Of a stretch of 54,184 bases of DNA, positions 6,383 to 32,356 are shown in pieces. Origin of the DNA: Minisyncoccia bacterium (lineage in GTDB: Bacteria > Patescibacteriota > Minisyncoccia > UBA6257); assembly GCA_049699995.1 (NCBI GenBank), contig JBNAWD010000038.1, forward strand, positions 1 through 54,184, in the 5' to 3' direction. Under the pieces are notes generated by a model. The model ran no database searches and was not told the origin of the DNA. It saw only the letters and a list, made by a program, of their open reading frames with translations. Numbering within the stretch: position 1 is the first letter of the stretch; each line of letters starts with the position of its first letter. Both the position numbers and the translations under genes were made by a program.

Positions 6383-6393
6383 TTCAAAAAACA

Positions 6394-7392
6394 ATGAATA
6401 TAATTGAAAATATTGAAAAAGAATTATTATCTTCTTCTCCCTTAAAAATAATCTTTCCAGAAGGCGAAGAAGAAAGAATATTAAAAGCAATCAAAGAAAT
6501 AGTTTCTCAAAAAATCTGCCAACCAATCCTTATAGGAAAAAAAGAAAAAATTCTATCTAATTTAGACGAAGATTTAAAAGATAAAATAGAAATTATTGAA
6601 CCGGAAAAATCAGAAAAATTAGAAACATACGCAAAAATATTTTCAGAATCAGAAAAAATATCTTTAGAAATTGCCAAAAATATAATTCTTCATCCCCTCT
6701 TTTTTGGCGCCTTATCTTTAAAAAATAATGATGTTGATGGAATGATAGCGGGAGCTTTTTATACCTCCGGAGATGTTATTAGCGTAAGCAAAAAAATAAT
6801 TGGAATAAAGGAAGGATTTAAAATTGTTTCCAGTTTCTTTTTGATGACTAAAGAAAATTCGCCTTATGGAGAAAATGGTTCTTTAATTTTTGCTGATGCT
6901 TCAGTCAATATTAATCCAAATGAAGAAGAATTGGCAGAAATTGCTGTTATGACTGGTCAAACGGCAAAAACTCTTTTTCAATGGACACCAAGAATAGCCC
7001 TTCTATCTTTTTCCACCAAAGGAAGCGCTTCTCACCCTTTAGTTGATAAAGTAAAAAAAGCCACCGAATTAGCCAAACAAAAAAATCCAGATTTATTAAT
7101 TGATGGTGAATTACAAGGAGATGCTGCCTTAAGAATAGAAGTTGCCCAAAAGAAAATAAAAACCCCGTCAGAAGTAGCCGGCAAAGCCAATGTTTTAATT
7201 TTTCCCGATTTAAATTCAGCTAATATCTGTTATAAATTAGTTAATATTTTAGCCGAATACCAAGCCCTTGGCCCTATTCTCCAAGGCTTTCAAAAACCAA
7301 TCAGCGATCTCTCCCGGGGAGTTAAACCAGAAGAAATAGTCAATATTACAGCAATTATAAGTTATTGGGCAAAAAATTTAAACAAACAATGA
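6394..7392 (+). CDS. pta: Phosphate acetyltransferase (short Pta form)
   Basis: The motifs are LLSFSTKGSASHP, DGELQGDAAL and ANVLIFPDLNSANICYKL. It lies immediately downstream of ackA. Confidence 0.9.
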   Translation: MNIIENIEKELLSSSPLKIIFPEGEEERILKAIKEIVSQKICQPILIGKKEKILSNLDEDLKDKIEIIEPEKSEKLETYAKIFSESEKISLEIAKNIILHPLFFGALSLKNNDVDGMIAGAFYTSGDVISVSKKIIGIKEGFKIVSSFFLMTKENSPYGENGSLIFADASVNINPNEEELAEIAVMTGQTAKTLFQWTPRIALLSFSTKGSASHPLVDKVKKATELAKQKNPDLLIDGELQGDAALRIEVAQKKIKTPSEVAGKANVLIFPDLNSANICYKLVNILAEYQALGPILQGFQKPISDLSRGVKPEEIVNITAIISYWAKNLNKQ

Positions 7393-9820: not shown

Positions 9821-10191
9821 CTAATTAACACTCTCTTTTTGACTTTTTTTGCCTCAAAAAATTTTTTTGTAAATTCAACCGCCTTTTCTGCATCAAAGGT
9901 TTTGCAAGAGAACAAATTGATATAAGCCCGATGCCAAAGTTCAGAAAAATGGCCAGAAACCAAACTGGATTCGATTAACTGAACAAAAGAATAACCGGCA
10001 GCGTAATCCAAATGAAGAGCGAATCTTTCAACAATTGCTTTTTTATATTTTTTCACTTTTATCACCTGACAAATTTTATCTATATATTCTAAAATTGCTT
10101 TCTTTGAACAAATTTTTTCCGGATGGCAATCGTATAAATCCATTATCAGTTCCTGGCCAAATATTTTTTTATTTTCTTTCTTCGAACTCAT
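9817..10191 (-). CDS. S-adenosylmethionine decarboxylase-like pyruvoyl proenzyme (SpeH family, divergent)
   Basis: ELIMDLYDC and QLIESSLVSGHFSE align to the ...ESH.S.HTWPE self-cleavage region of class 1 AdoMetDC. The downstream Cys is present (LFSCKTF). The HTWPE motif is degenerate here (GHFSE). Confidence 0.6.
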   Translation of the reverse strand: MSSKKENKKIFGQELIMDLYDCHPEKICSKKAILEYIDKICQVIKVKKYKKAIVERFALHLDYAAGYSFVQLIESSLVSGHFSELWHRAYINLFSCKTFDAEKAVEFTKKFFEAKKVKKRVLIR

Positions 10192-10263: not shown

Positions 10264-10722
10264 TTATTCTCCTGAATAACCAACCGGCAATAAAGATATT
10301 GGTCGCCAATCATCTGGGACTTTTAAAATTTCTTTTATTTTTTCTTCCTCAAAAGCTCCAACCCAGCAAGCTGATAAGCCTAAACTTACTGCCTCTAACC
10401 AAGCATAAGCGCAAGCAATAGTGGCATCCTGTAAAGAATAAAGATTTCTCCCTCTTTCGCCATAAACTTTTTCTGATTTTTCAGGTAAAGCAAAAAAGAC
10501 AAATACTACAGGCGCCTGAGAAATAAATCTTTGATTAAAGGAAACTTTTGATAATTTTTCTTTAAGGTCTTTTTCTTTGATTATTAACACCTCTCTCGCC
10601 TTTAAATTCCCAGCGGAAGGAGAAGATTCGATAACCTTTAGAATTTCCTCTATTTTTTCTTTTTCAATTTCCTCCTCTAAAAAATTTCTAACTGATTTTC
10701 TTTTTTTAAACAAAGGGTTCAT
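10264..10722 (-). CDS. Nitroreductase family protein
   Basis: FKKRKSVRNF is the N-terminal nitroreductase signature, and the protein ends in SACWVGAF...LPVGY. I prefer the start MNPLFKKRKS at 10722 over 10764. Confidence 0.8.
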   Translation of the reverse strand: MNPLFKKRKSVRNFLEEEIEKEKIEEILKVIESSPSAGNLKAREVLIIKEKDLKEKLSKVSFNQRFISQAPVVFVFFALPEKSEKVYGERGRNLYSLQDATIACAYAWLEAVSLGLSACWVGAFEEEKIKEILKVPDDWRPISLLPVGYSGE

Positions 10723-19461: not shown

Positions 19462-21195
19462 CTAATTATCAATACTTAATTCTTTATTAACTTGAGTTCT
19501 CGTTAAAGGGCCAAAATAACCAGTCGCTAAAATCCCCTTTAAAGTCTGATACCTTTTCACAGCAGCCATTGTTAATGGTCCATAATAACCGGTAATTAAA
19601 CCTTCTGGATAAATCTCCGGGCCTAAATTTTTTAAAAATATCTGCAAACATTTTACCTCTTCAGAATTCATTCCATAATAAAGATCTTGAGAAAAGCCCA
19701 AACAAATCGGCTTTTGTTTTAAAGTCAAAAGATAAGCTAATTGTTGCTGGAGAAGAGCAACTTGCTTTTTTAAAGATTCAATTTGTTTTAATAATTCTTG
19801 TTTAATTTTTTCTTCATTTAAAGGGTTATTAGCTAAAATTTTTGCTTCCCAAGAATAGTAGTAAACTTTATTTTCCCGGGCATCTTTCCCTAAATAAGGA
19901 ATGAAAATTAAAGCTTGATATTGAGAACCAAAATTTAAAACAGTAATCTCCTGAATATTAGTTTTAGAGAAGTCAATAAAATTTAAAGATTTTTGACCAT
20001 TTTCATCAATTAAAATGTAAGGAATCTCCTTTATTGGCGTTTTTTCATCTAAAATAAATTTTAATTTTAATAAACCATTACCCCCTTGAATTTTTTGCCA
20101 CTTTCCTTCCCATTTTAAAAGAGAATCAACTACTGTCATTGTGCTTTCTCCTGTTTGCGGTAAGAAATAAGAATTAGAAAGAGCTGAAAAATTCTTTAAG
20201 TTTTCATCTTGATAACAATATTTTCTATCAACAGAACAATCATTTAAAACGTTGGTAATTAAAAATCTAAGAAAAAGTTCATCAATATCTAAATTGCTGT
20301 CTCTTTTCTTTAAAGCGCTCTCGATAGCCGAAACAGCATCTTCCGGACCAAATAAAATATCTTTAAAAATGTCTTGGGAAAATTGTTCTTTTAAATACAA
20401 AGCCAAAAGATAAATTTTTCCATAATCGCTTCCCTTTTCCTGCCAGTTTAAAAAATTTAAATTAGTAGTCGTTAAAAGTTGACTGGCTCTTTTTTTAGTT
20501 AATGAAGAAGAAAAATCATTTTTTAAAATAGTGGCGGCAAATTCAGAAAATAATTCTGCTAACCAAACATCAATCTTTGGCCGAGCTTTTAAAGTGATAA
20601 GATGGGTAAACTCATGAAATAAATAATACAAAACAACCGAAGTTGAATTTTTTAACACTGCTTCGGCATTTAAAAAGATAATCTGACCTTCATTTGAAGT
20701 TGGATTTAAGGTTTTTGAAAAACCATCAATCGAACGAACATAACCGCCGACATCGGTTTTTAATTTTTCCAAAACAACAATTAATCGAGGGTCGTTATCT
20801 ATGCCGGGAATATCTTCGGGGGTTAAAAGAGAAGTAATCTTTGGATAAAATTGATATTCAAAAATATTGGAAATTTCATTTAATTTACTTTCTAAACTTT
20901 GTCTCTGGTTAGGATCTAATTTTAAATACCAATCTTTCTGGACATAGAAATAAAATTTATTCGTTGTTTTTATTAATTGAGCCTCAATAGAAGAAGCTCC
21001 ATTTTCATCATAATCTTGATTGGTAAAAAAAGATCTTTCTAAAGAAACACCTAAAACATATTGAGGGAAAATATTTAAAAGAAAAGAGAAAATAATCCCA
21101 ACTGAGAGAATTTTTCTTTCTAAGTTTTTTATTTTCATACCCATAATAATAAAAATAATACCAAAAAAACTAAAAAAATCAAAGCCCCCTATCAA
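19462..21195 (-). CDS. Secreted zincin-like protein (HEFTH) with C-terminal coiled coil and peptidoglycan-binding (PG_binding_1-like) domain
   Basis: It has a signal anchor, YLFHEFTHLI (an HExxH motif) and a C-terminus TGYYGPLTMAAVKRYQ...TGYFGPLTRTQV. The true start may be an internal Met (MGMKIKN, about 21144). Confidence 0.6.
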   Translation of the reverse strand: MIGGFDFFSFFGIIFIIMGMKIKNLERKILSVGIIFSFLLNIFPQYVLGVSLERSFFTNQDYDENGASSIEAQLIKTTNKFYFYVQKDWYLKLDPNQRQSLESKLNEISNIFEYQFYPKITSLLTPEDIPGIDNDPRLIVVLEKLKTDVGGYVRSIDGFSKTLNPTSNEGQIIFLNAEAVLKNSTSVVLYYLFHEFTHLITLKARPKIDVWLAELFSEFAATILKNDFSSSLTKKRASQLLTTTNLNFLNWQEKGSDYGKIYLLALYLKEQFSQDIFKDILFGPEDAVSAIESALKKRDSNLDIDELFLRFLITNVLNDCSVDRKYCYQDENLKNFSALSNSYFLPQTGESTMTVVDSLLKWEGKWQKIQGGNGLLKLKFILDEKTPIKEIPYILIDENGQKSLNFIDFSKTNIQEITVLNFGSQYQALIFIPYLGKDARENKVYYYSWEAKILANNPLNEEKIKQELLKQIESLKKQVALLQQQLAYLLTLKQKPICLGFSQDLYYGMNSEEVKCLQIFLKNLGPEIYPEGLITGYYGPLTMAAVKRYQTLKGILATGYFGPLTRTQVNKELSIDN

Positions 21196-21200
21196 CCCAA

Positions 21201-21242
21201 CTATCGACCTCGGAGGTCAATATTGACCTCCGAGGTCGATAG
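21201..21242. repeat. Perfect 42-nt palindrome (REP-like doublet), copy 1
   Basis: CTATCGACCTCGGAGGTCAAT|ATTGACCTCCGAGGTCGATAG is exactly self-complementary. Each arm contains the inner palindrome GACCTC-G-GAGGTC. Confidence 0.9.
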
Positions 21243-21244
21243 TA

Positions 21245-21934
21245 TTAGGGTTCTAAAGTAGAATTTTTGAAAATTTTTATTTTATTCTGGTTTAAAGATT
21301 TAAGCCAATCATAGGAAGCTTTCTTGTAGCTTTGAGATCCATTAAAAAATTTAAGCAAAAAGTCTTTACGAATAACCGAAGGAAAATTTTTTTCTCCAAT
21401 ATAATCCAAAAAACTTGACCAGCGGTATTTATTTAAAAAACGAATAGCTTTTTGATAATCTCTTAATTCCCCTTTTCGCCATTCGGGAAACTTTAAATCT
21501 AATGGATTGAAATGAATATAATAAGGAAGATGAATAAAATGAGCTTCTTCTTTTATTAAGATTGATTTATATTTTCCCTCAAAAAGAGTGCCTTTTCTTT
21601 GATATTTTTGATTAAAATATTTAACATAACCAACATCTAATTTTTGCATAAATAAAGAAATAGCCCCCTCTTTCAAGGGTATTAATAAAAGATGATAATG
21701 GTTAGGCATTAAACAAAAAGCCAAAATTTCAACTAACAATTCTCTGCGCTCTTTTTCTTGGTTAAATTTAAAATCCGAGAGAAAGTTTTTTTGAAAATAA
21801 AAATTATTATTTGGAGCTGGCTTCTCGTCATTAAATTCAAATAAATTATGAATAAACCTTAAATAATCTCTCTCGTCAAGGAAAATCTTTCTTTGATCCA
21901 CTCCTCTATTTAAAATATGATAAATACCTTCCAT
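21245..21934 (-). CDS. IS200-like HUH/Y1 transposase, RAYT-like (REP-associated tyrosine transposase)
   Basis: It has the HUH motif CLMPNHYHLLL and the catalytic-Tyr helix PYYIHFNPL. It is 229 aa long and is flanked on both sides by the same palindrome. Confidence 0.8.
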   Translation of the reverse strand: MEGIYHILNRGVDQRKIFLDERDYLRFIHNLFEFNDEKPAPNNNFYFQKNFLSDFKFNQEKERRELLVEILAFCLMPNHYHLLLIPLKEGAISLFMQKLDVGYVKYFNQKYQRKGTLFEGKYKSILIKEEAHFIHLPYYIHFNPLDLKFPEWRKGELRDYQKAIRFLNKYRWSSFLDYIGEKNFPSVIRKDFLLKFFNGSQSYKKASYDWLKSLNQNKIKIFKNSTLEP

Positions 21935-22016
21935 AAAATAAAAAGACAGCGGGGAAATTAAAATTTCTATATATTTTTAAAAAATATTTAAAATTTTGTC
22001 AATAGCTCTAGTTTTA

Positions 22017-22058
22017 TTATCGACCTCGGAGGTCAATATTGACCTCCGAGGTCGATAA
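22017..22058. repeat. Perfect 42-nt palindrome (REP-like doublet), copy 2
   Basis: TTATCGACCTCGGAGGTCAAT|ATTGACCTCCGAGGTCGATAA differs from copy 1 only at the outermost base pair. Confidence 0.9.
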
Positions 22059-22070
22059 ATTAAAGAACTA

Positions 22071-22097
22071 AAAAACCGGCCGAAAGGCCGGTTTTTT
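22071..22097 (-). terminator. Rho-independent terminator (bidirectional shape) after the surface-protein gene
   Basis: AAAAA-CCGGCC-GAAA-GGCCGG-TTTTTT lies 21 nt downstream of the stop at 22118. Confidence 0.8.
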
Positions 22098-22117
22098 AGT
22101 AACCCGCAAGGAAGGGT

Positions 22118-24010
22118 TTACTGACCAGTAAAGTAAGTCTGGCCAGTCTTCAAGGTATCAATACCCCAAGTCTGGCTAACAGCACCAGTGGAAGTAGCGG
22201 AAGTGTTCCAGCCAATAGAAGCTAATCTAACTTCATAGTATCCGGCATCGCTAGAGCCAGTTAATTTGAAGGTAGCATTAAATTCACAAGTAGCAGTGGA
22301 ACCAGAAGTAATTCTCCAGAACTTATTAGTGCTATCTTCAGTGGCATTAGAACAAGTCCAAGAGGCAGAAGAAGTAGAGGGAGTAACCGAGCTTCCATTC
22401 TTGTAGATGGCCTTTGTTATAGAGGTAGTAGAATTGTCGCTGGTAGGAATATAGATATCGCCACCATTAGCAGTTACAGTAAAGACAATCTTAGCAGTAC
22501 CTAAATCAGCAACAGTGGAAGAGGTAGAACCAGAAGCGGTCAAACTAGCATTGCTTAAGGCAAAGACTGGAGCCTTTAAGAATGGATAGAATCTTTCACT
22601 ATCAAGAGAAGTGCCGTCAGCAGTCTTGACATTGCTGTTGGTATCAATACCAGTCAAAGAAGGACCAGTGGTAGAAATTACAACATATTTGGTAGAGCCA
22701 CCAGCAAAGCTTGAACTCTGGGCAGCAATATTGACTTTAATTGACAAAGTCTTAGTTGTTCCAGCGGCAACCGGTAAGCTGAAGTTAGACCAAGAAACAG
22801 AACCATCATTACCAGACCAACTGGGAGCAGCAGAAGCTAACAAAGTTGATCCATCCCAAAGCTCAGCTGAGATAACATCCGAAGTAGCAAGACCAACGCC
22901 TTTAGTAATGGTCACACTACCAGAACTAAAGGTGACATCTAAATCTTTTACTTCGACATTGAATCTCATTATCTCTACTCTGGTAGCGCCAGAAGTGGAG
23001 ACAATAATATTTTGAGCTTTTGGATTATCAGTGGCGAGGCTGACATTAACATCCGCGCTAAGGGTAGTAGTAATCGTCAAACCAGTGCGAGAAACATCAC
23101 TACCACTGGCAACAGAGTAATTAATGCCAGCAGTATCAGTAAAGACTAATTGATCATACTCAATAGTAGCTCCCCAGGTATCATCTTGAACATCAGATAC
23201 TGGATTAGTCACTACAGTACCTTTAACAGTCAAAACTTTAGTGGAGTTATTAGGAACTACCCAGTTCAAACCAGTGAAATTAAAGGTGTAATTGTCGGCA
23301 AAAGTATTCTCAATGGCATTGGCGGAAGAAGGGACAATCTCAGCTAACAAGTTAGAGCCATCATAAAGAGAAAGTTTGCTGAAAGCGCCCCAAGGAAAAG
23401 CATCAGCCGCAGTGTGGTCAATAGTGACAGCTATCTTTTTAACAGTAATGTCTGAACCAGTGGCTTTAAACTGAGCAGCCACTAATTCATAAGTTTGACC
23501 ACCATATAAAGTGGTTTGAGCGTTAGAAACTGGATAGCTTGTAATGGATAAAGTTCCATAAGCAGGAGCAACAACTGTCGTGGTGGTAGTACCGGCACTG
23601 GTAGTCGTGGTAGTAACAGGAGTGCAGTAAAGTTCATTTAATTTGGCTCTAGTCAAAGGACCAACATAACCAGTCTGAGGAATACCATATTGCGCCTGGA
23701 ATCTTTGAACAGCAGCCTTGGTCAAAGGACCAAAATAGCCGCTAGTAGGAGTGACTCCTAAGATAATCTGTAGGTTTTTGACATCATTAGAAGTCAAGCC
23801 ATAGTAAAGATCCGTATTGAAGCAATAGGTTCCAGTGGTCTGTTGGCCTCCTTGTAAAGCGGCAATCTGTTGTTGTAATTGGGCAATAATACCCAATAAC
23901 TGTTGAATTTGAGCTTGAAGCTCTTGAACAGATTGGCCAAAAACCGGAGAAACTGCCATTGAAAGGGCAAAAATCCCGGTTAAAATTGAAGCTGTTAATT
24001 TCTTTCCCAT
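22118..24010 (-). CDS. Secreted S/T/A/G-rich surface protein with N-terminal coiled coil + peptidoglycan-binding domain (S-layer-like candidate)
   Basis: It has a signal peptide (LTASILTGIFALSMAVSPVFG), a coiled coil (QELQAQIQQLLGIIAQLQQQIAALQ) and PG_binding_1-like repeats (SGYFGPLTKAAVQRFQ...TGYVGPLTRAKL). A Thr-rich linker and about 480 aa of beta-rich, low-charge sequence follow. Confidence 0.75.
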   Translation of the reverse strand: MGKKLTASILTGIFALSMAVSPVFGQSVQELQAQIQQLLGIIAQLQQQIAALQGGQQTTGTYCFNTDLYYGLTSNDVKNLQIILGVTPTSGYFGPLTKAAVQRFQAQYGIPQTGYVGPLTRAKLNELYCTPVTTTTTSAGTTTTTVVAPAYGTLSITSYPVSNAQTTLYGGQTYELVAAQFKATGSDITVKKIAVTIDHTAADAFPWGAFSKLSLYDGSNLLAEIVPSSANAIENTFADNYTFNFTGLNWVVPNNSTKVLTVKGTVVTNPVSDVQDDTWGATIEYDQLVFTDTAGINYSVASGSDVSRTGLTITTTLSADVNVSLATDNPKAQNIIVSTSGATRVEIMRFNVEVKDLDVTFSSGSVTITKGVGLATSDVISAELWDGSTLLASAAPSWSGNDGSVSWSNFSLPVAAGTTKTLSIKVNIAAQSSSFAGGSTKYVVISTTGPSLTGIDTNSNVKTADGTSLDSERFYPFLKAPVFALSNASLTASGSTSSTVADLGTAKIVFTVTANGGDIYIPTSDNSTTSITKAIYKNGSSVTPSTSSASWTCSNATEDSTNKFWRITSGSTATCEFNATFKLTGSSDAGYYEVRLASIGWNTSATSTGAVSQTWGIDTLKTGQTYFTGQ

Positions 24011-30931: not shown

Positions 30932-32356
30932 CTATCGAGGACAACATAAGATATAACAGGAATACCCTTTGCCCGGACAACCACCGCAACCACCACTTTT
31001 TTTATAATAACCAGAAGGACAGGATAAACAATTTGAACTAGTAGGACATTCCCCTTCTGTCCTCGTGCAGGAACCAGAAGAACTGCTCGATTGTTGAGTT
31101 GGGGTATGAGAAGAACCACTACTACCACCAGAAGTACCACCGCTAGCCGAACCTCCACAATCAGCATCACTTCGACAAGATTTATAATTAGAACAAGGAT
31201 AAATTGTCGCTCCTGAAATACATTTATCAGCTCGACAAACATTCGTGCAGTAATAAGTAGTGTTAGTAGAAGGTTGAGTTATTCCTCCGCAATCCGCATC
31301 TTTGCTACAACTCTTCATGTTAGAACAACTTTGGCTAAAATATCCGGAAGTACATTTTCCTTGATAGCAAACATTTCGGCAATAGAATTGTTGGGATTGA
31401 GTTTGAGTCTGGGTCTGGGTTTGTTGGGCGGTACCAGTCAAAGGAGTGCCGGAAGGAGTACATTCACTTTTGCAAGGAGTATCAGAAGAATAAGGAACAC
31501 ATTGTTGGCTAACACCACAACCACCTCCCCCGGAAGAATTTTGCCTCATTTCATAACGATAACAAATATAAGCAGCCTTTTTGCAATTGGCTTGACAAGC
31601 AGATAAAGAGGAATAATATCCTGGATCATCAGCGATAGTTCTATTCACAACAGTATAAACACATTGAGCAGTAGTTCGGTCGCAATAATAAACTCTCACT
31701 TTATCGCTAGGTTTTTTAGTTGTTGTGGTTGTTTGATTAGTCGAACCGATCATACTTTGAGATTCTAATTGATGAAATTGCTGACTAAGTTGAGCTGGAG
31801 ATGGTTGAGAGGGTTGAGAAGATGGAAGAGAACTGGCTCCCTCTGGTTTTATAAGTTGAGCTGGAGAAGGAACACTTTGAGATTCTAATTGATGAAATTG
31901 CTGACTAAGTTGAGCTGGAGATGGTTGAGAAGATTGGGATGATTGTGAGGATTGGGATGATTGAGATTGTTTTAATTGATTAGCAATTTGTTCAGCTGTA
32001 TTAATAATATTTGTTACTCCTTGACGAACTTTTTCTAAAGCAGTAGCAGCTTCTGGAGAAAAAGTGGAAACCACTTTGCTAAGATCTTCAGGATTTTTAA
32101 TCTTGCTTAAATTCTCAATGCCGGTAACTATCCGACTGGCTTCTCGTAAAGGAGTAGCTAGTTGTGGTGGAACAAAGTTACTCATAACATTTAGGGTATC
32201 TCCAAGGCCTTTTTTCTTTTCTGTTTCGGATAGATCAGACTGAAGAATTTTTCTTTGCAGTTCCTCAGGGGTTGTCGCTTTTGATACTTCTTTGAAAATT
32301 AGGCTCAATCCTATAATTAATATTAAGACAAAAATGAATATTTTATTTTTATTCAT
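30932..32356 (-). CDS. Secreted modular protein: signal anchor, Q/S/P-rich repeat linker, C-terminal 30-Cys region (no family recognised)
   Basis: The signal anchor is IFIFVLILIIGLSLIF. QPSPAQLSQQFHQLESQS occurs twice, with (SSQ)n and (TQ)n runs. Two modules share the identical spacing C-x3-C-x4-C-x8-C-x5-C-x5-C and both end in DADCGG. Confidence 0.8.
   Translation of the reverse strand: MNKNKIFIFVLILIIGLSLIFKEVSKATTPEELQRKILQSDLSETEKKKGLGDTLNVMSNFVPPQLATPLREASRIVTGIENLSKIKNPEDLSKVVSTFSPEAATALEKVRQGVTNIINTAEQIANQLKQSQSSQSSQSSQSSQPSPAQLSQQFHQLESQSVPSPAQLIKPEGASSLPSSQPSQPSPAQLSQQFHQLESQSMIGSTNQTTTTTKKPSDKVRVYYCDRTTAQCVYTVVNRTIADDPGYYSSLSACQANCKKAAYICYRYEMRQNSSGGGGCGVSQQCVPYSSDTPCKSECTPSGTPLTGTAQQTQTQTQTQSQQFYCRNVCYQGKCTSGYFSQSCSNMKSCSKDADCGGITQPSTNTTYYCTNVCRADKCISGATIYPCSNYKSCRSDADCGGSASGGTSGGSSGSSHTPTQQSSSSSGSCTRTEGECPTSSNCLSCPSGYYKKSGGCGGCPGKGYSCYILCCPR
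31754..31930. repeat. 57-nt exact direct repeat with 120-nt period inside the Cys-rich protein gene
   Basis: Positions 31754-31810 are identical to 31874-31930 (ACTTTGAGATTCTAATTGATGAAATTGCTGACTAAGTTGAGCTGGAGATGGTTGAGA). It is followed by four 9-nt units at 31932-31967. Confidence 0.9.

What the first reader, a model, noticed from the sequence alone, without database searches (positions are those of the whole stretch)
21201..22058. RAYT-like HUH/Y1 transposase gene bracketed by two copies of a perfect 42-nt nested palindrome
Seen in the sequence:
- Positions 21201-21242 read CTATCGACCTCGGAGGTCAAT|ATTGACCTCCGAGGTCGATAG, a perfect palindrome.
- Positions 22017-22058 carry the same sequence except for the outermost base pair. 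The 40-nt cores 21202-21241 and 22018-22057 are identical.
- Each 21-nt arm contains its own small palindrome, GACCTC-G-GAGGTC. Single-stranded DNA could therefore fold into one long hairpin or two short ones, like a head-to-head REP doublet.
- The copies lie 2 nt beyond the stop and 82 nt upstream of the start of ORF 21245-21934.
- That ORF product has the HUH motif (MPNHYHLLL) and the Tyr helix (YYIHFNPL) of IS200-like Y1 transposases.
- I see no tnpB, no asymmetric IS200/IS605-type ends and no direct target duplication.

Established knowledge: domesticated Y1 transposases (RAYTs) are typically flanked by inverted REP hairpins, which they bind and cleave and which are scattered through intergenic DNA.

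Inference: this is a REP/RAYT unit, sitting between two cell-surface genes of a very streamlined genome where repeat families are not expected to persist.
Basis: partly seen in the sequence, partly recalled or inferred. Interest (0 to 1): 0.7.

Follow-up and report, generated by a model that had tools for sequence, protein, structure and literature searches.

The report
Hairpin-bracketed Y1 nuclease gene cassette
A small gene for a single-strand-DNA-cutting enzyme of the IS200/RAYT type sits between two copies of its own palindromic hairpin in an ultra-small (CPR) bacterium. Relatives show that it belongs to a large, old, occasionally lost cassette family, not to an ordinary multi-copy jumping gene or a big dispersed repeat family.

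Summary
Two 42-nt perfect palindromes (21201-21242, 22017-22058) bracket a 229-aa HUH/Y1 gene (21245-21934, minus strand), and there are no other copies in the 54-kb contig.

- **Protein.** It is a class-2 (Y...NP) TnpA-Y1 protein. Its predicted fold best matches E. coli TnpAREP (4ER8). Its nearest non-CPR sequence relatives (at most 33% identity) are TIR-flanked "TIRYT"/subclass 2.1 transposases.
- **Family.** It belongs to a large Patescibacteria family. In 65 of 76 loci, the gene's own upstream and downstream flanks share a locus-specific hairpin.
  - The hairpins share a conserved core (GAnnTC-S-GAnnGTC, 3-nt loop) and show strong compensatory covariation.
  - 43 of 65 loci carry a third, in-frame copy inside the coding sequence.
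  - Orphan copies are rare, about 1 per 100 kb.
- **History of the window cassette.** It is syntenic in a relative whose neighbour genes are 68-70% identical. It is absent without trace in outgroups at about 50% identity. It is absent in a 96%-identical relative, which keeps one recombinant solo hairpin.

Verdict: this is a REPtron-like Y1 nuclease/hairpin unit, a new CPR variant. It is inherited vertically for long periods, excised occasionally, and has at most a tiny REP population.

The parts
22017..22058 (.). Upstream 42-nt perfect palindrome. It is a head-to-head doublet of two 21-nt hairpin units (TATCGACCT-CGG-AGGTCAATA and TATTGACCT-CCG-AGGTCGATA on the gene strand). It lies directly after the neighbour gene's terminator and 82 nt before the ATG.
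   Evidence: It conforms to the family-wide hairpin core GAnnTC-S-GAnnGTC.
21973..22002 (-). Best promoter-like site for the Y1 gene (TTGACA, 18-nt spacer, AAAAAT; 10 of 12 matches). It lies inside the cassette, between the upstream palindrome and the ATG.
   Evidence: This is a consensus match only.
21245..21934 (-). Y1/HUH single-strand DNA nuclease/transposase gene, 229 aa. HUH (NHYH) is at codons 78-81 (21692-21703). The catalytic-type Tyr Y139 in YIHFNP is at 21518-21520. The C-terminal YRWSS motif is present.
21201..21242 (.). Downstream 42-nt perfect palindrome (the same doublet), starting 2 nt after the stop codon.
21185..21200 (-). TTGGGTTGATAGGGGG on the gene strand. It is a partial repeat of the hairpin's 3' arm (GTCGATAG / GTTGATAG), lies just outside the downstream palindrome, and is largely absent from the emptied site of the close relative (about a 12-nt indel).
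   Evidence: Similar half-arm repeats sit next to hairpins in L032, L038 and L070.
22067..22100 (-). Context: intrinsic terminator of the upstream PG_binding gene (22118-24010). The cassette begins 8 nt after it.
   Evidence: It is conserved in L106 and in the outgroups L107-L110.
21155..21182 (-). Context: promoter-like site of the downstream PG_binding gene (TTGATT, 16-nt spacer, TATTAT with a TG). The cassette therefore sits between one gene's terminator and the next gene's promoter.
   Evidence: The flank is conserved in L106.

Best explanation
The 858-nt unit is a REPtron-like cassette: a Y1/HUH single-strand DNA nuclease gene together with its own cognate hairpins. It belongs to a large, previously uncharacterised Patescibacteria (CPR) branch of the class-2 TnpA-Y1 superfamily.

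**Shown**
- The enzyme has the HUH and Tyr catalytic motifs and a TnpAREP-like predicted fold.
- The two 42-nt palindromes are doublets of the family's conserved hairpin (GAnnTC-S-GAnnGTC core, 3-nt loop, A/T-rich foot).
- Hairpin sequence co-evolves with the gene, locus by locus.
- The cassette was present in the common ancestor of this organism and a relative whose neighbour genes are 68-70% identical. It diverged at the same rate as those neighbours.
- It is missing, leaving one recombinant solo hairpin, in a relative whose neighbour gene is 96% identical.
- Orphan hairpins are rare in the family.

**Inferred mechanism**
- The protein binds the hairpins when they extrude from single-stranded DNA, for example at the replication fork or during transcription.
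- It nicks beside or within them using Tyr139, forming a 5'-phosphotyrosine intermediate, with His79/His81 holding the metal ion.
- It can then join equivalent positions of two hairpin copies. That would excise the cassette and leave a single hairpin, exactly as in L106. On rare occasions the same chemistry would seed solo copies or move the cassette to a new intergenic site.
- In most family members the upstream hairpin sits over the -35 region of a leaderless promoter, which suggests autoregulation. In this window the promoter lies 15 nt inside the hairpin.
- The net behaviour is a low-activity, mostly vertically inherited resident element, not an amplifying IS or a large REP population.
For: **Protein**
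- Pfam Y1_Tnp passes its cut-off.
- H79, H81 and Y139 are invariant.
- A profile of the family hits ISDra2 TnpA at the HUH motif.
- The AlphaFold model (pLDDT 81) best matches 4ER8, TnpAREP with a REP hairpin (E 1.2e-5, 185 aligned columns), followed by ISDra2/IS608 TnpA.
- The Y...NP motif is the class-2 signature of Quentin et al. 2018 (PMC6006769).

**Hairpins are cognate**
- Own upstream and downstream flanks share a match of score 15 or more in 65 of 76 loci, against 6 of 228 cross-locus controls.
- The hairpin logo has G-6/C+6 at 98% and T-2/A+2 at 88%, and 165 of 177 hairpins have a 3-nt loop.
- In 58 hairpins, 94.3% of cells are paired against 56.7% in shuffles. 236 cells changed on both sides against 70. 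None of 500 shuffles reached these values.
- Between the window and L001 the stem changed by a compensatory T:A to C:G swap.

**Not an amplifying IS**
- Paralogs within one genome are only 42-66% identical, each with its own hairpin.

**Vertical residence**
- Same synteny in L001-L004. Neighbours are 68% and 70% identical and the Y1 protein 66%.

**Loss with footprint**
- L106 has the same synteny and a 96%-identical neighbour but no Y1 gene. It holds one hairpin, TATCGACCTCCGAGGTCGATA, between identical outer flanks. This sequence equals a crossover between the left-outer and right-outer hairpin units.
- Outgroup empty sites have no hairpin.

**Orphans**
- 9 solitary copies in 883 kb of flanks, mostly intergenic, with 0-2 mismatches to the gene-flanking copies.
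Against: - No biochemical data exist for any member. Binding and cleavage are inferred from homology.
- Palindrome covariation supports a double-stranded dimer-binding site as well as a single-strand hairpin. In addition, my hairpin selection required at least 7 pairs, which biases the pairing statistics.
- The L106 deletion could be ordinary recombination or replication slippage between the 21-nt direct repeats, without the enzyme.
- Loop orientation at the two ends is random (34 direct, 31 inverted). This fits neither the REPtron rule nor the IS200/IS605 rule.
- No second copy of the hairpin was found in 54 kb of this genome, and the rest of the genome could not be scanned.
- The hairpins lack a GT[AG]G guide-like foot.
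- The score against NCBIfam REP_Tyr_transpos is half the cut-off.
Confidence: 0.6

Rival explanations
1. It is an ordinary autonomous IS200-group insertion sequence (tnpA only) with subterminal hairpin ends. It transposes as a whole by the single-strand peel-and-paste pathway, and this genome happens to hold one copy.
For: - The whole cassette is present or absent among syntenic relatives, with boundaries at the hairpins.
- Family members sit in different genomic contexts.
- Several genomes hold 2-3 members.
- The fold also matches IS608/ISDra2 TnpA.
Against: - The Y motif is Y...NP, not the IS200-group Y...Q.
- Copies within a genome are 42-66% identical with different hairpins. Quentin et al. 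report about 99% for IS200-type copies.
- The cassette diverged at the same rate as its neighbours (66% against 68-70%).
- The two ends carry the same symmetric palindrome, and orientation across the family is random. Distinct left and right ends on one strand would be expected.
- The excision footprint keeps a hairpin, whereas IS608-type excision reseals the flanks cleanly (established knowledge of IS200/IS605).
Confidence: 0.15
2. It is a domesticated DNA-binding or regulatory protein. The palindromes are duplex operator sites bound by a dimer, and the downstream copy serves as a terminator or mRNA-stabilising hairpin. The HUH/Tyr chemistry is no longer used for DNA rearrangement.
For: - The palindromes are symmetric and their orientation is unconstrained.
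- In most loci the upstream copy overlaps the -35 region of a leaderless promoter, with a TATAAT-like box in 36 of 65 loci, typically 6 nt from the ATG, against 3 of 61 control windows.
- The downstream copy lies a median of 7 nt after the stop codon.
- Protein conservation is high (mean column identity 59%).
- The locus has been inherited vertically for a long time.
Against: - The HUH histidines and the Tyr are invariant across the family, which argues for retained catalysis.
- Orphan hairpins lie far from any family gene.
- A solo hairpin is left at the emptied site.
- Regulation does not require in-frame copies inside the coding sequence.
- The gene is dispensable in L106.
Confidence: 0.15
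3. The palindromes have nothing to do with the gene. They are host structural elements (terminators or recombination hot spots) that happen to flank it.
For: - The upstream copy follows a terminator and the downstream copy follows a stop codon.
- Hairpin-loop inversion also occurred in the neighbouring ordinary terminator between the window and L106.
Against: - Locus-specific co-variation of the flank hairpins with the gene in 65 of 76 loci, against 6 of 228 controls.
- Own-motif copies inside the coding sequence in 43 of 65 loci, against 29 of 4160 cross-locus tests.
- Outgroup sites that lack the gene also lack the hairpin.
- The palindromes have no T-run directly after them.
Confidence: 0.03

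Closest known systems
REPtron: TnpAREP/RAYT with flanking REP/BIME hairpins (E. coli rayT, PDB 4ER8; Quentin et al. 2018 subclasses 2.2, 2.4, 2.5, 2.7, 2.8)
   Same: - A Y1/HUH enzyme with the Y...NP motif, and the best structural match.
- The gene is flanked by its own co-evolving hairpins.
- Different paralogs in one genome each have their own hairpin family.
- Low copy number and largely vertical inheritance.
- Solitary hairpins occur elsewhere in the genome.
- The window's doublets resemble a zero-spacer REPIN.
   Different: - No 5' GT[AG]G foot.
- The hairpins have a different conserved core and a 3-nt loop.
- The REP population is tiny: about 1 orphan per 100 kb, and none in this 54-kb contig.
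- Orientation of the two ends is random.
- The protein scores below the NCBIfam equivalog cut-off. It carries two CPR-specific insertions and a YRWSS tail.
- The upstream hairpin overlaps the promoter in most members.
TIRYT / TnpA-Y1 subclass 2.1 (Bertels Group 1 RAYTs)
   Same: - These are the nearest sequence relatives outside CPR (23-33% identity).
- They share the motif set NH[YV]H, [FW][QE]G, YI.LNP and WSS, and have a similar length (Table 1 of PMC6006769).
- Flanking 16-mers are low-copy in Group 1, about 12 per replicon (PMC5581495).
   Different: - Subclass 2.1 genes are reported to have no REP-like hairpins and are flanked by terminal inverted repeats with GGGG[AT][CG]A[CG]. I confirmed this for the Legionella and Iodobacter plasmid homologs.
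- The CPR family has a local hairpin at each end instead.
- It lacks the distal HTH domain seen in the Legionella homolog.
- It has an insertion of about 40 aa before the HUH motif.
IS200/IS605 TnpA (IS608, ISDra2, IS200)
   Same: - The same fold and catalytic motifs.
- Subterminal hairpins at both ends of a roughly 0.8-kb unit.
- The whole unit is gained and lost in evolution.
   Different: - Y...NP rather than Y...Q.
- No near-identical copies.
- No tnpB.
- Identical symmetric ends.
- The excision footprint retains a hairpin.
In-frame REP insertions inside tnpAREP genes (subclass 2.4; Cyanobacteria and Bacteroidetes)
   Same: 43 of 65 CPR loci carry their own hairpin in frame inside the coding sequence, in a loop predicted to be disordered. 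The window gene itself lacks it.
   Different: [quoted passage not shown] Here the copy lies before HuH, at nt 126-233.
- The position is conserved across the family.
- The copy co-varies with the flank copies.

Membership tests
TnpA-Y1 superfamily (Pfam Y1_Tnp, HUH/Y1 nucleases) | HUH metal-binding motif and a single catalytic Tyr on the C-terminal helix, within the Y1_Tnp fold | tested here: met
   - Pfam scores 33.6 bits against a cut-off of 23.
- H79, H81 and Y139 are invariant.
- Foldseek hits to 4ER8, 2XM3 and 2VJV have probability 1.00.
Class 2 TnpA-Y1 (TnpAREP/RAYT-type, Quentin et al. 2018) | Y-motif signature Y...NP (as opposed to Y...Q of the IS200 type) | tested here: met
   YIHFNP in the window protein. 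Y139, N143 and (P144 nearly) are invariant in A1.
Canonical REP/RAYT (REPtron) | The gene is flanked by cognate palindromic hairpins that co-evolve with it | tested here: met
Canonical REP/RAYT (REPtron) | The same hairpin is dispersed in many intergenic copies across the genome | tested here: inconclusive
   - No extra copies in the 54-kb contig, and only the solo footprint in 21.7 kb of L106.
- The family-wide density is 9 orphans per 883 kb, which predicts about 0.5 in this window.
- The rest of the genome was not available.
Canonical REP/RAYT (REPtron) | A 5' GT[AG]G tetranucleotide at the foot of the hairpin | tested here: not met
   The logo of 132 flank hairpins shows an A/T-rich foot (AAT.T...). 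G is at most 19% at positions -14 to -8 and there is no GTAG.
Canonical REP/RAYT (REPtron) | Flanking REPs in inverted orientation relative to each other | tested here: not met
   Across the family, 34 loci are direct, 31 inverted and 2 ambiguous. In the window each end is a symmetric doublet, so orientation is undefined.
Canonical REP/RAYT (NCBIfam NF047646 REP_Tyr_transpos equivalog) | Score above the curated cut-off | tested here: not met
   40.1 bits against a cut-off of 80.
Canonical REP/RAYT (Bertels groups 2/3) | Single or low copy number, vertical inheritance, divergence like neighbouring genes | tested here: met
   - Y1 is 66% identical against 68% and 70% for the neighbours in the same synteny.
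- Paralogs are 42-66% identical.
- However, one close relative has lost the cassette.
IS200/IS605 insertion sequences | Multiple near-identical copies of the whole element per genome | tested here: not met
   One copy in the window. Within-genome pairs are 42-66% identical.
IS200/IS605 insertion sequences | Y...Q Tyr motif; distinct left-end and right-end hairpins on the same strand; often a tnpB partner | tested here: not met
   - The motif is Y...NP.
- The ends are identical and symmetric.
- There is no tnpB-like ORF.
TIRYT / subclass 2.1 | Motif set NH[YVF]H, W[EQ]/FQ, Y[IV].LNP, and a proximal tail with SS | tested here: met
   The window protein has NHYH, LFEG, YIHFNP and YRWSS. It aligns with the Legionella and Iodobacter homologs.
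TIRYT / subclass 2.1 | Terminal inverted repeats containing GGGG[AT][CG]A[CG], with no local hairpins | tested here: not met
   The window ends are local palindromes. Such TIRs are present in L111 and L112 but not here.
TIRYT / subclass 2.1 | Distal C-terminal HTH-like domain (Bac_DnaA_C, HTH_23 or HTH_28) | tested here: not met
   There is no such Pfam hit for the window protein at E up to 0.1. Weak hits are present in the Legionella homolog.

The most novel reading that the evidence does not exclude
Patescibacteria carry a phylum-wide, undescribed type of Y1-nuclease/hairpin module. In it the enzyme gene is wired to its own recognition hairpin at three fixed places:
- over the -35 region of a leaderless promoter;
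- in frame inside the coding sequence;
- directly after the stop codon.

All three copies co-evolve. The enzyme would sense single-stranded or extruded DNA at its own locus to regulate, invert or excise itself. The module would persist as a vertically inherited resident of streamlined genomes and might serve a host function in ssDNA processing, rather than acting as a transposon or a REP amplifier. The window element, with doublets at both ends and no internal copy, would be a derived form.
Probability: 0.3. Interest if true: 0.7.

Novelty: new variant of a known kind. Interest (0 to 1): 0.55.

Why it matters
- **Extends the known range.** RAYT/REP systems have been characterised almost only in Proteobacteria, Cyanobacteria and Bacteroidetes. 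The subclass closest to this protein was reported to have no hairpins at all. A large hairpin-associated branch in ultra-small CPR genomes shows that the Y1-nuclease/hairpin partnership can persist where intergenic space is minimal and repeat populations cannot expand.
- **A natural set of states.** The data include naive empty sites, occupied sites that co-diverged with their neighbours, and a recently emptied site with a recombinant solo hairpin. This is the kind of footprint needed to infer how such elements leave a genome.
- **Testable recognition code.** The conserved hairpin core with covarying specificity positions, together with the in-frame and promoter-overlapping copies, gives direct hypotheses for recognition and autoregulation.
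- **Annotation.** These genes are currently labelled only 'transposase'.

Tried and rejected
- **Rfam.** A scan of the window found nothing.
- **PDB, single sequence.** phmmer gave only a spurious hit. A profile was needed.
- **Exact-protein look-up.** The window ORF is not on record, so the rest of the source MAG could not be reached.
- **Metagenome scan for TATYGACCTCSGAGGTCRATA.**
  - It returned 17 stretches, none from the window's species.
  - Three carry an adjacent family gene (L093, L096, L097).
  - One (L105) has a family-gene fragment 8.6 kb from the hairpin.
  - The other 13 have no family gene in the fetched stretch. A few of these may be chance matches, by my rough estimate.
  - This gives only weak support for dispersal of this hairpin type. 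L092 is a clean intergenic solo copy after a terminator.
- **Half-site motif TAAAAGGTCRA.** It resembles a hairpin arm and occurs upstream of neighbouring genes, but it is not enriched (8 found, 6.1 expected). Dropped.
- **Relic of an internal hairpin in the window coding sequence.** Only a CTCGGA hexamer matches around 21765-21790, which is not distinguishable from chance.
- **Phage search.** One weak hit only.
- **MAFFT alignment of occupied against empty site.** It misplaced the right flank, so the boundaries were read by eye.
- **dN/dS.** Not attempted, because synonymous sites are saturated at 66% amino-acid identity.
Full report
**1. The observation**

The sequence is as described.
- Positions 21201-21242 are a perfect 42-nt palindrome. 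Positions 22017-22058 are the same except for the outermost pair. The 40-nt cores are identical (D10/I1).
- Allowing 3 mismatches, the 19-mer core occurs only in these two palindromes in the 54,184-nt window. Chance expectation is 0.01.
- As single-stranded DNA each 42-mer forms one 20-bp hairpin (-24.3 and -22.7 kcal/mol, z about -10.6). The 21-nt halves alone give only about -3.5 kcal/mol.
- The copies lie 2 nt after the stop and 82 nt before the start of ORF 21245-21934 on the minus strand (229 aa).
- The cassette sits between the intrinsic terminator of the upstream gene (22067-22100) and the promoter-like site of the downstream gene (21155-21182). Its own best promoter-like site (TTGACA-18-AAAAAT, 21973-22002) lies inside the bracket.

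**2. The protein**

- It passes Pfam Y1_Tnp (33.6 bits, cut-off 23).
- It reaches only 40 bits against NCBI's REP_Tyr_transpos equivalog, whose cut-off is 80.
- In an alignment of 34 homologs, H79 and H81 (NHYH) and Y139 (YIHFNP) are invariant, as is a C-terminal YRWSS..DY..NFPS block.
- A profile of the family hits ISDra2 TnpA across the HUH motif.
- An AlphaFold2 model (mean pLDDT 81, with a disordered loop at residues 41-59) best matches E. coli TnpAREP bound to a REP hairpin (4ER8; E 1.2e-5, 185 aligned columns). ISDra2, IS608 and IS200 transposases follow.
- In the classification of Quentin et al. 2018 (PMC6006769), Y...NP marks class 2 (TnpAREP type) and Y...Q marks IS200.
- The motif set NHYH / LF[EQ]G / YIH[LF]NP / WSS and a length of about 230-240 aa match their subclass 2.1 (Bertels Group 1).
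- The nearest non-CPR relatives are 23-33% identical plasmid 'transposases'. Two of them (Legionella, Iodobacter) share these motifs.
- The Legionella protein has weak C-terminal HTH hits. Both genes are flanked by 26-nt terminal inverted repeats containing GGGTCAGG or GGGGTCAG, the TIRYT signature.
- Relative to these, the CPR proteins have an insertion of about 40 aa before HUH and one of about 14 aa after the Tyr helix. They lack the distal HTH.

**3. The family**

The window is a whole contig of a Minisyncoccia MAG. More than 2,700 homologs at about 60% identity were found. The 50%-identity representative library holds 279 clusters at E up to 1e-30.

From 80 GTDB loci plus 8 others I extracted the gene and its flanks.
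- **Shared flank hairpins.** In 65 of 76 non-redundant loci, the gene's own upstream and downstream flanks share an ungapped match of score 15 or more (median 23). Only 6 of 228 cross-locus controls did.
- **Form and position.** The shared element is always a hairpin or palindrome. It ends a median of 20 nt before the ATG and starts a median of 7 nt after the stop.
- **Logo.** For 132 flank hairpins the logo is AAT.T..nGAcnTC[S]GAngTCn..A.ATT. G-6/C+6 is at 98% and T-2/A+2 at 88%. The loop is 3 nt in 165 of 177 hairpins. There is no GT[AG]G foot.
- **Covariation.** On 58 hairpins including the window's, 94.3% of cells pair, against 56.7% in shuffles and 30-40% with slid partners. 11 of 12 pairs show changes on both sides, in 236 cells against 70. 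None of 500 shuffles reached these values.
- **Caveats.** Selection required at least 7 pairs. Palindrome covariation cannot separate a single-strand hairpin from a duplex dimer site.
- **Where the window fits.** The window's units (TATCGACCT-CGG-AGGTCAATA and its partner) fit the consensus. The window is unusual in having head-to-head doublets at both ends.

**4. Is it an IS, a REP system, or something else?**

*Copy number*
- Genomes with 2-3 members hold paralogs that are 42-66% identical, each with its own hairpin.
- That matches class-2 behaviour and differs from IS200, for which Quentin et al. report about 99% identity between copies.

*Orphan hairpins*
- They exist but are rare: 9 in 883 kb of flanking DNA, with 0-2 mismatches to the gene-flanking copy, mostly intergenic.
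- That density predicts about 0.5 in this window, so finding none is uninformative.

*Orientation*
- Loop orientation between the two ends is random (34 direct, 31 inverted). This fits neither the REPtron rule nor the IS200/IS605 rule.
- Between the window and L106, the loop of the neighbouring ordinary terminator is also inverted (TTTC against GAAA). Loop inversion may therefore be a general property of hairpins, for example through template switching.

*History of this particular cassette*

| Comparison | Neighbour-gene identity to window | State of the site |
|---|---|---|
| L001-L004 | 68% and 70% (Y1 protein 66%) | Occupied, same synteny (DUF5667 / PG_binding / Y1 / PG_binding / Wzy_C). 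Hairpins TATCGACTT-CGC-AAGTCGATA, a compensatory T:A to C:G change from the window |
| L107-L110 | about 50-53% | Same synteny, empty 90-122-nt spacer, no such hairpin |
| L106 (GCA_017880035.1) | 96% | Same synteny, no Y1 gene, exactly one hairpin TATCGACCTCCGAGGTCGATA (9929-9949) between the same outer flanks |

- The L106 hairpin is what a crossover gives between positions 4 and 11 of the left-outermost and right-outermost 21-nt units. That corresponds to an 837-nt deletion.
- No ortholog above 66% identity exists in the protein collection.
- The most parsimonious history is one gain in the ancestor of the clade, long vertical residence under purifying selection, and a recent loss that left a solo hairpin.

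**5. Mechanism**

*Shown:* the catalytic motifs, the TnpAREP-like fold, cognate co-evolving hairpins, rare orphans, and gain and loss of the unit with a hairpin footprint.

*Inferred:*
- The enzyme binds the extruded hairpin and nicks ssDNA through Tyr139.
- It can join equivalent positions of two hairpin copies. This would excise the cassette and occasionally seed solo copies or move the unit.

The L106 deletion could instead be enzyme-independent recombination between the repeats.

In most family members, though not in the window, a TATAAT-like box lies about 6 nt from the ATG. It is present in 36 of 65 loci against 3 of 61 control windows. The hairpin then lies over the -35 region of a leaderless promoter, which suggests autoregulation.

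**6. Comparison and novelty**

- The architecture works like a REPtron (RAYT plus REP).
- Three defining features of canonical REP/RAYT were tested and not met: the GT[AG]G foot, inverted orientation, and the equivalog score. High-copy dispersal is unproven.
- By sequence the protein is closest to TIRYT/subclass 2.1. That subclass is described as lacking hairpins, and I confirmed TIRs rather than hairpins in two members.
- In-frame REPs inside tnpAREP genes are known for subclass 2.4, between HuH and Y. Here 43 of 65 loci carry their own hairpin in frame before HUH, at nt 126-233, against 29 of 4160 in cross-locus controls. The site corresponds to the disordered loop of the model. The window gene and its L001 ortholog lack this copy.
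- Full-text searches found no paper linking RAYT, TnpAREP, TnpAY1 or REPtron with CPR taxa beyond a KEGG label.
- I therefore rate it a new variant of a known kind, of moderate interest.

Noticed in passing
L005:3174-3215, L007:1435-1464 and 41 other loci (not in the window gene): A third copy of the locus's own hairpin lies in frame inside the Y1 coding sequence at nt 126-233. It encodes peptides such as QYIDFVSQYI or SIDIASPYI and co-varies with the flank copies (43 of 65 loci, against 29 of 4160 cross-locus tests). It maps to the disordered loop (residues 41-59) of the model.
   Followed up: partly
Upstream regions of L012, L030, L056, L061, L070, L074, L080, L083, L084 and others: A TATAAT-like box typically ends about 6 nt before the ATG (36 of 65 loci, against 3 of 61 control windows). 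This implies leaderless mRNAs, with the upstream hairpin over the -35/spacer region. The window differs: it has an 82-nt spacer with its own TTGACA-18-AAAAAT site.
   Followed up: partly
window 22078-22089 versus L106:9893-9904: The 4-nt loop of the neighbouring intrinsic terminator is inverted between the two close relatives (TTTC against GAAA on the gene strand), while the stem is identical. This is a hairpin-loop flip in an ordinary terminator.
   Followed up: no
window 21185-21200; L032:9975-9990 and 10706-10720; L038:3051-3066; L070:10643-10657: Short tandem repeats of one hairpin arm lie directly beside many hairpins (for example GTCGATAG-TTGG-GTTGATAG in the window). Most of the window's copy is missing from the emptied site in L106.
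   Followed up: no
L016, L061, L038, L051, L085, L087: A few family members sit on contigs binned as Aenigmatarchaeota, Nanoarchaeota, Spirochaetia, Omnitrophota or Acidimicrobiales. This could be mis-binning of CPR contigs or horizontal transfer.
   Followed up: no
L111:445-470/1415-1440 and L112:472-497/1317-1342: The TIRs of the nearest non-CPR relatives contain GGGTCAGG or GGGGTCAG, which resembles the CPR hairpin arm GAGGTCAA. This hints that the CPR hairpin could be a TIRYT end site folded onto itself. It is only a lead.
   Followed up: no
window 21141-21195: The mechanical ORF 19462-21195 starts at a TTG that overlaps the arm repeat. Comparison with L106 (which starts MRIKNL...) suggests the real start is the ATG near 21143 (MGMKIKNL). 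That leaves a promoter-bearing spacer of about 58 nt after the palindrome.
   Followed up: partly
window 31754-31943: Two 70-nt direct repeats, 94% identical and 120 nt apart, lie inside ORF 30932-32356 on the minus strand (D11). This looks like an internal coding repeat.
   Followed up: no
L092:5698-5718; L094:6337-6357 and about 6390-6430: Metagenome contigs carry solo copies of the same hairpin type with no family gene in the fetched stretch. L092's copy follows a terminator and has a half-arm repeat. L094 also has a nearby second palindrome with the GACCTCSGAGGTC core.
   Followed up: partly
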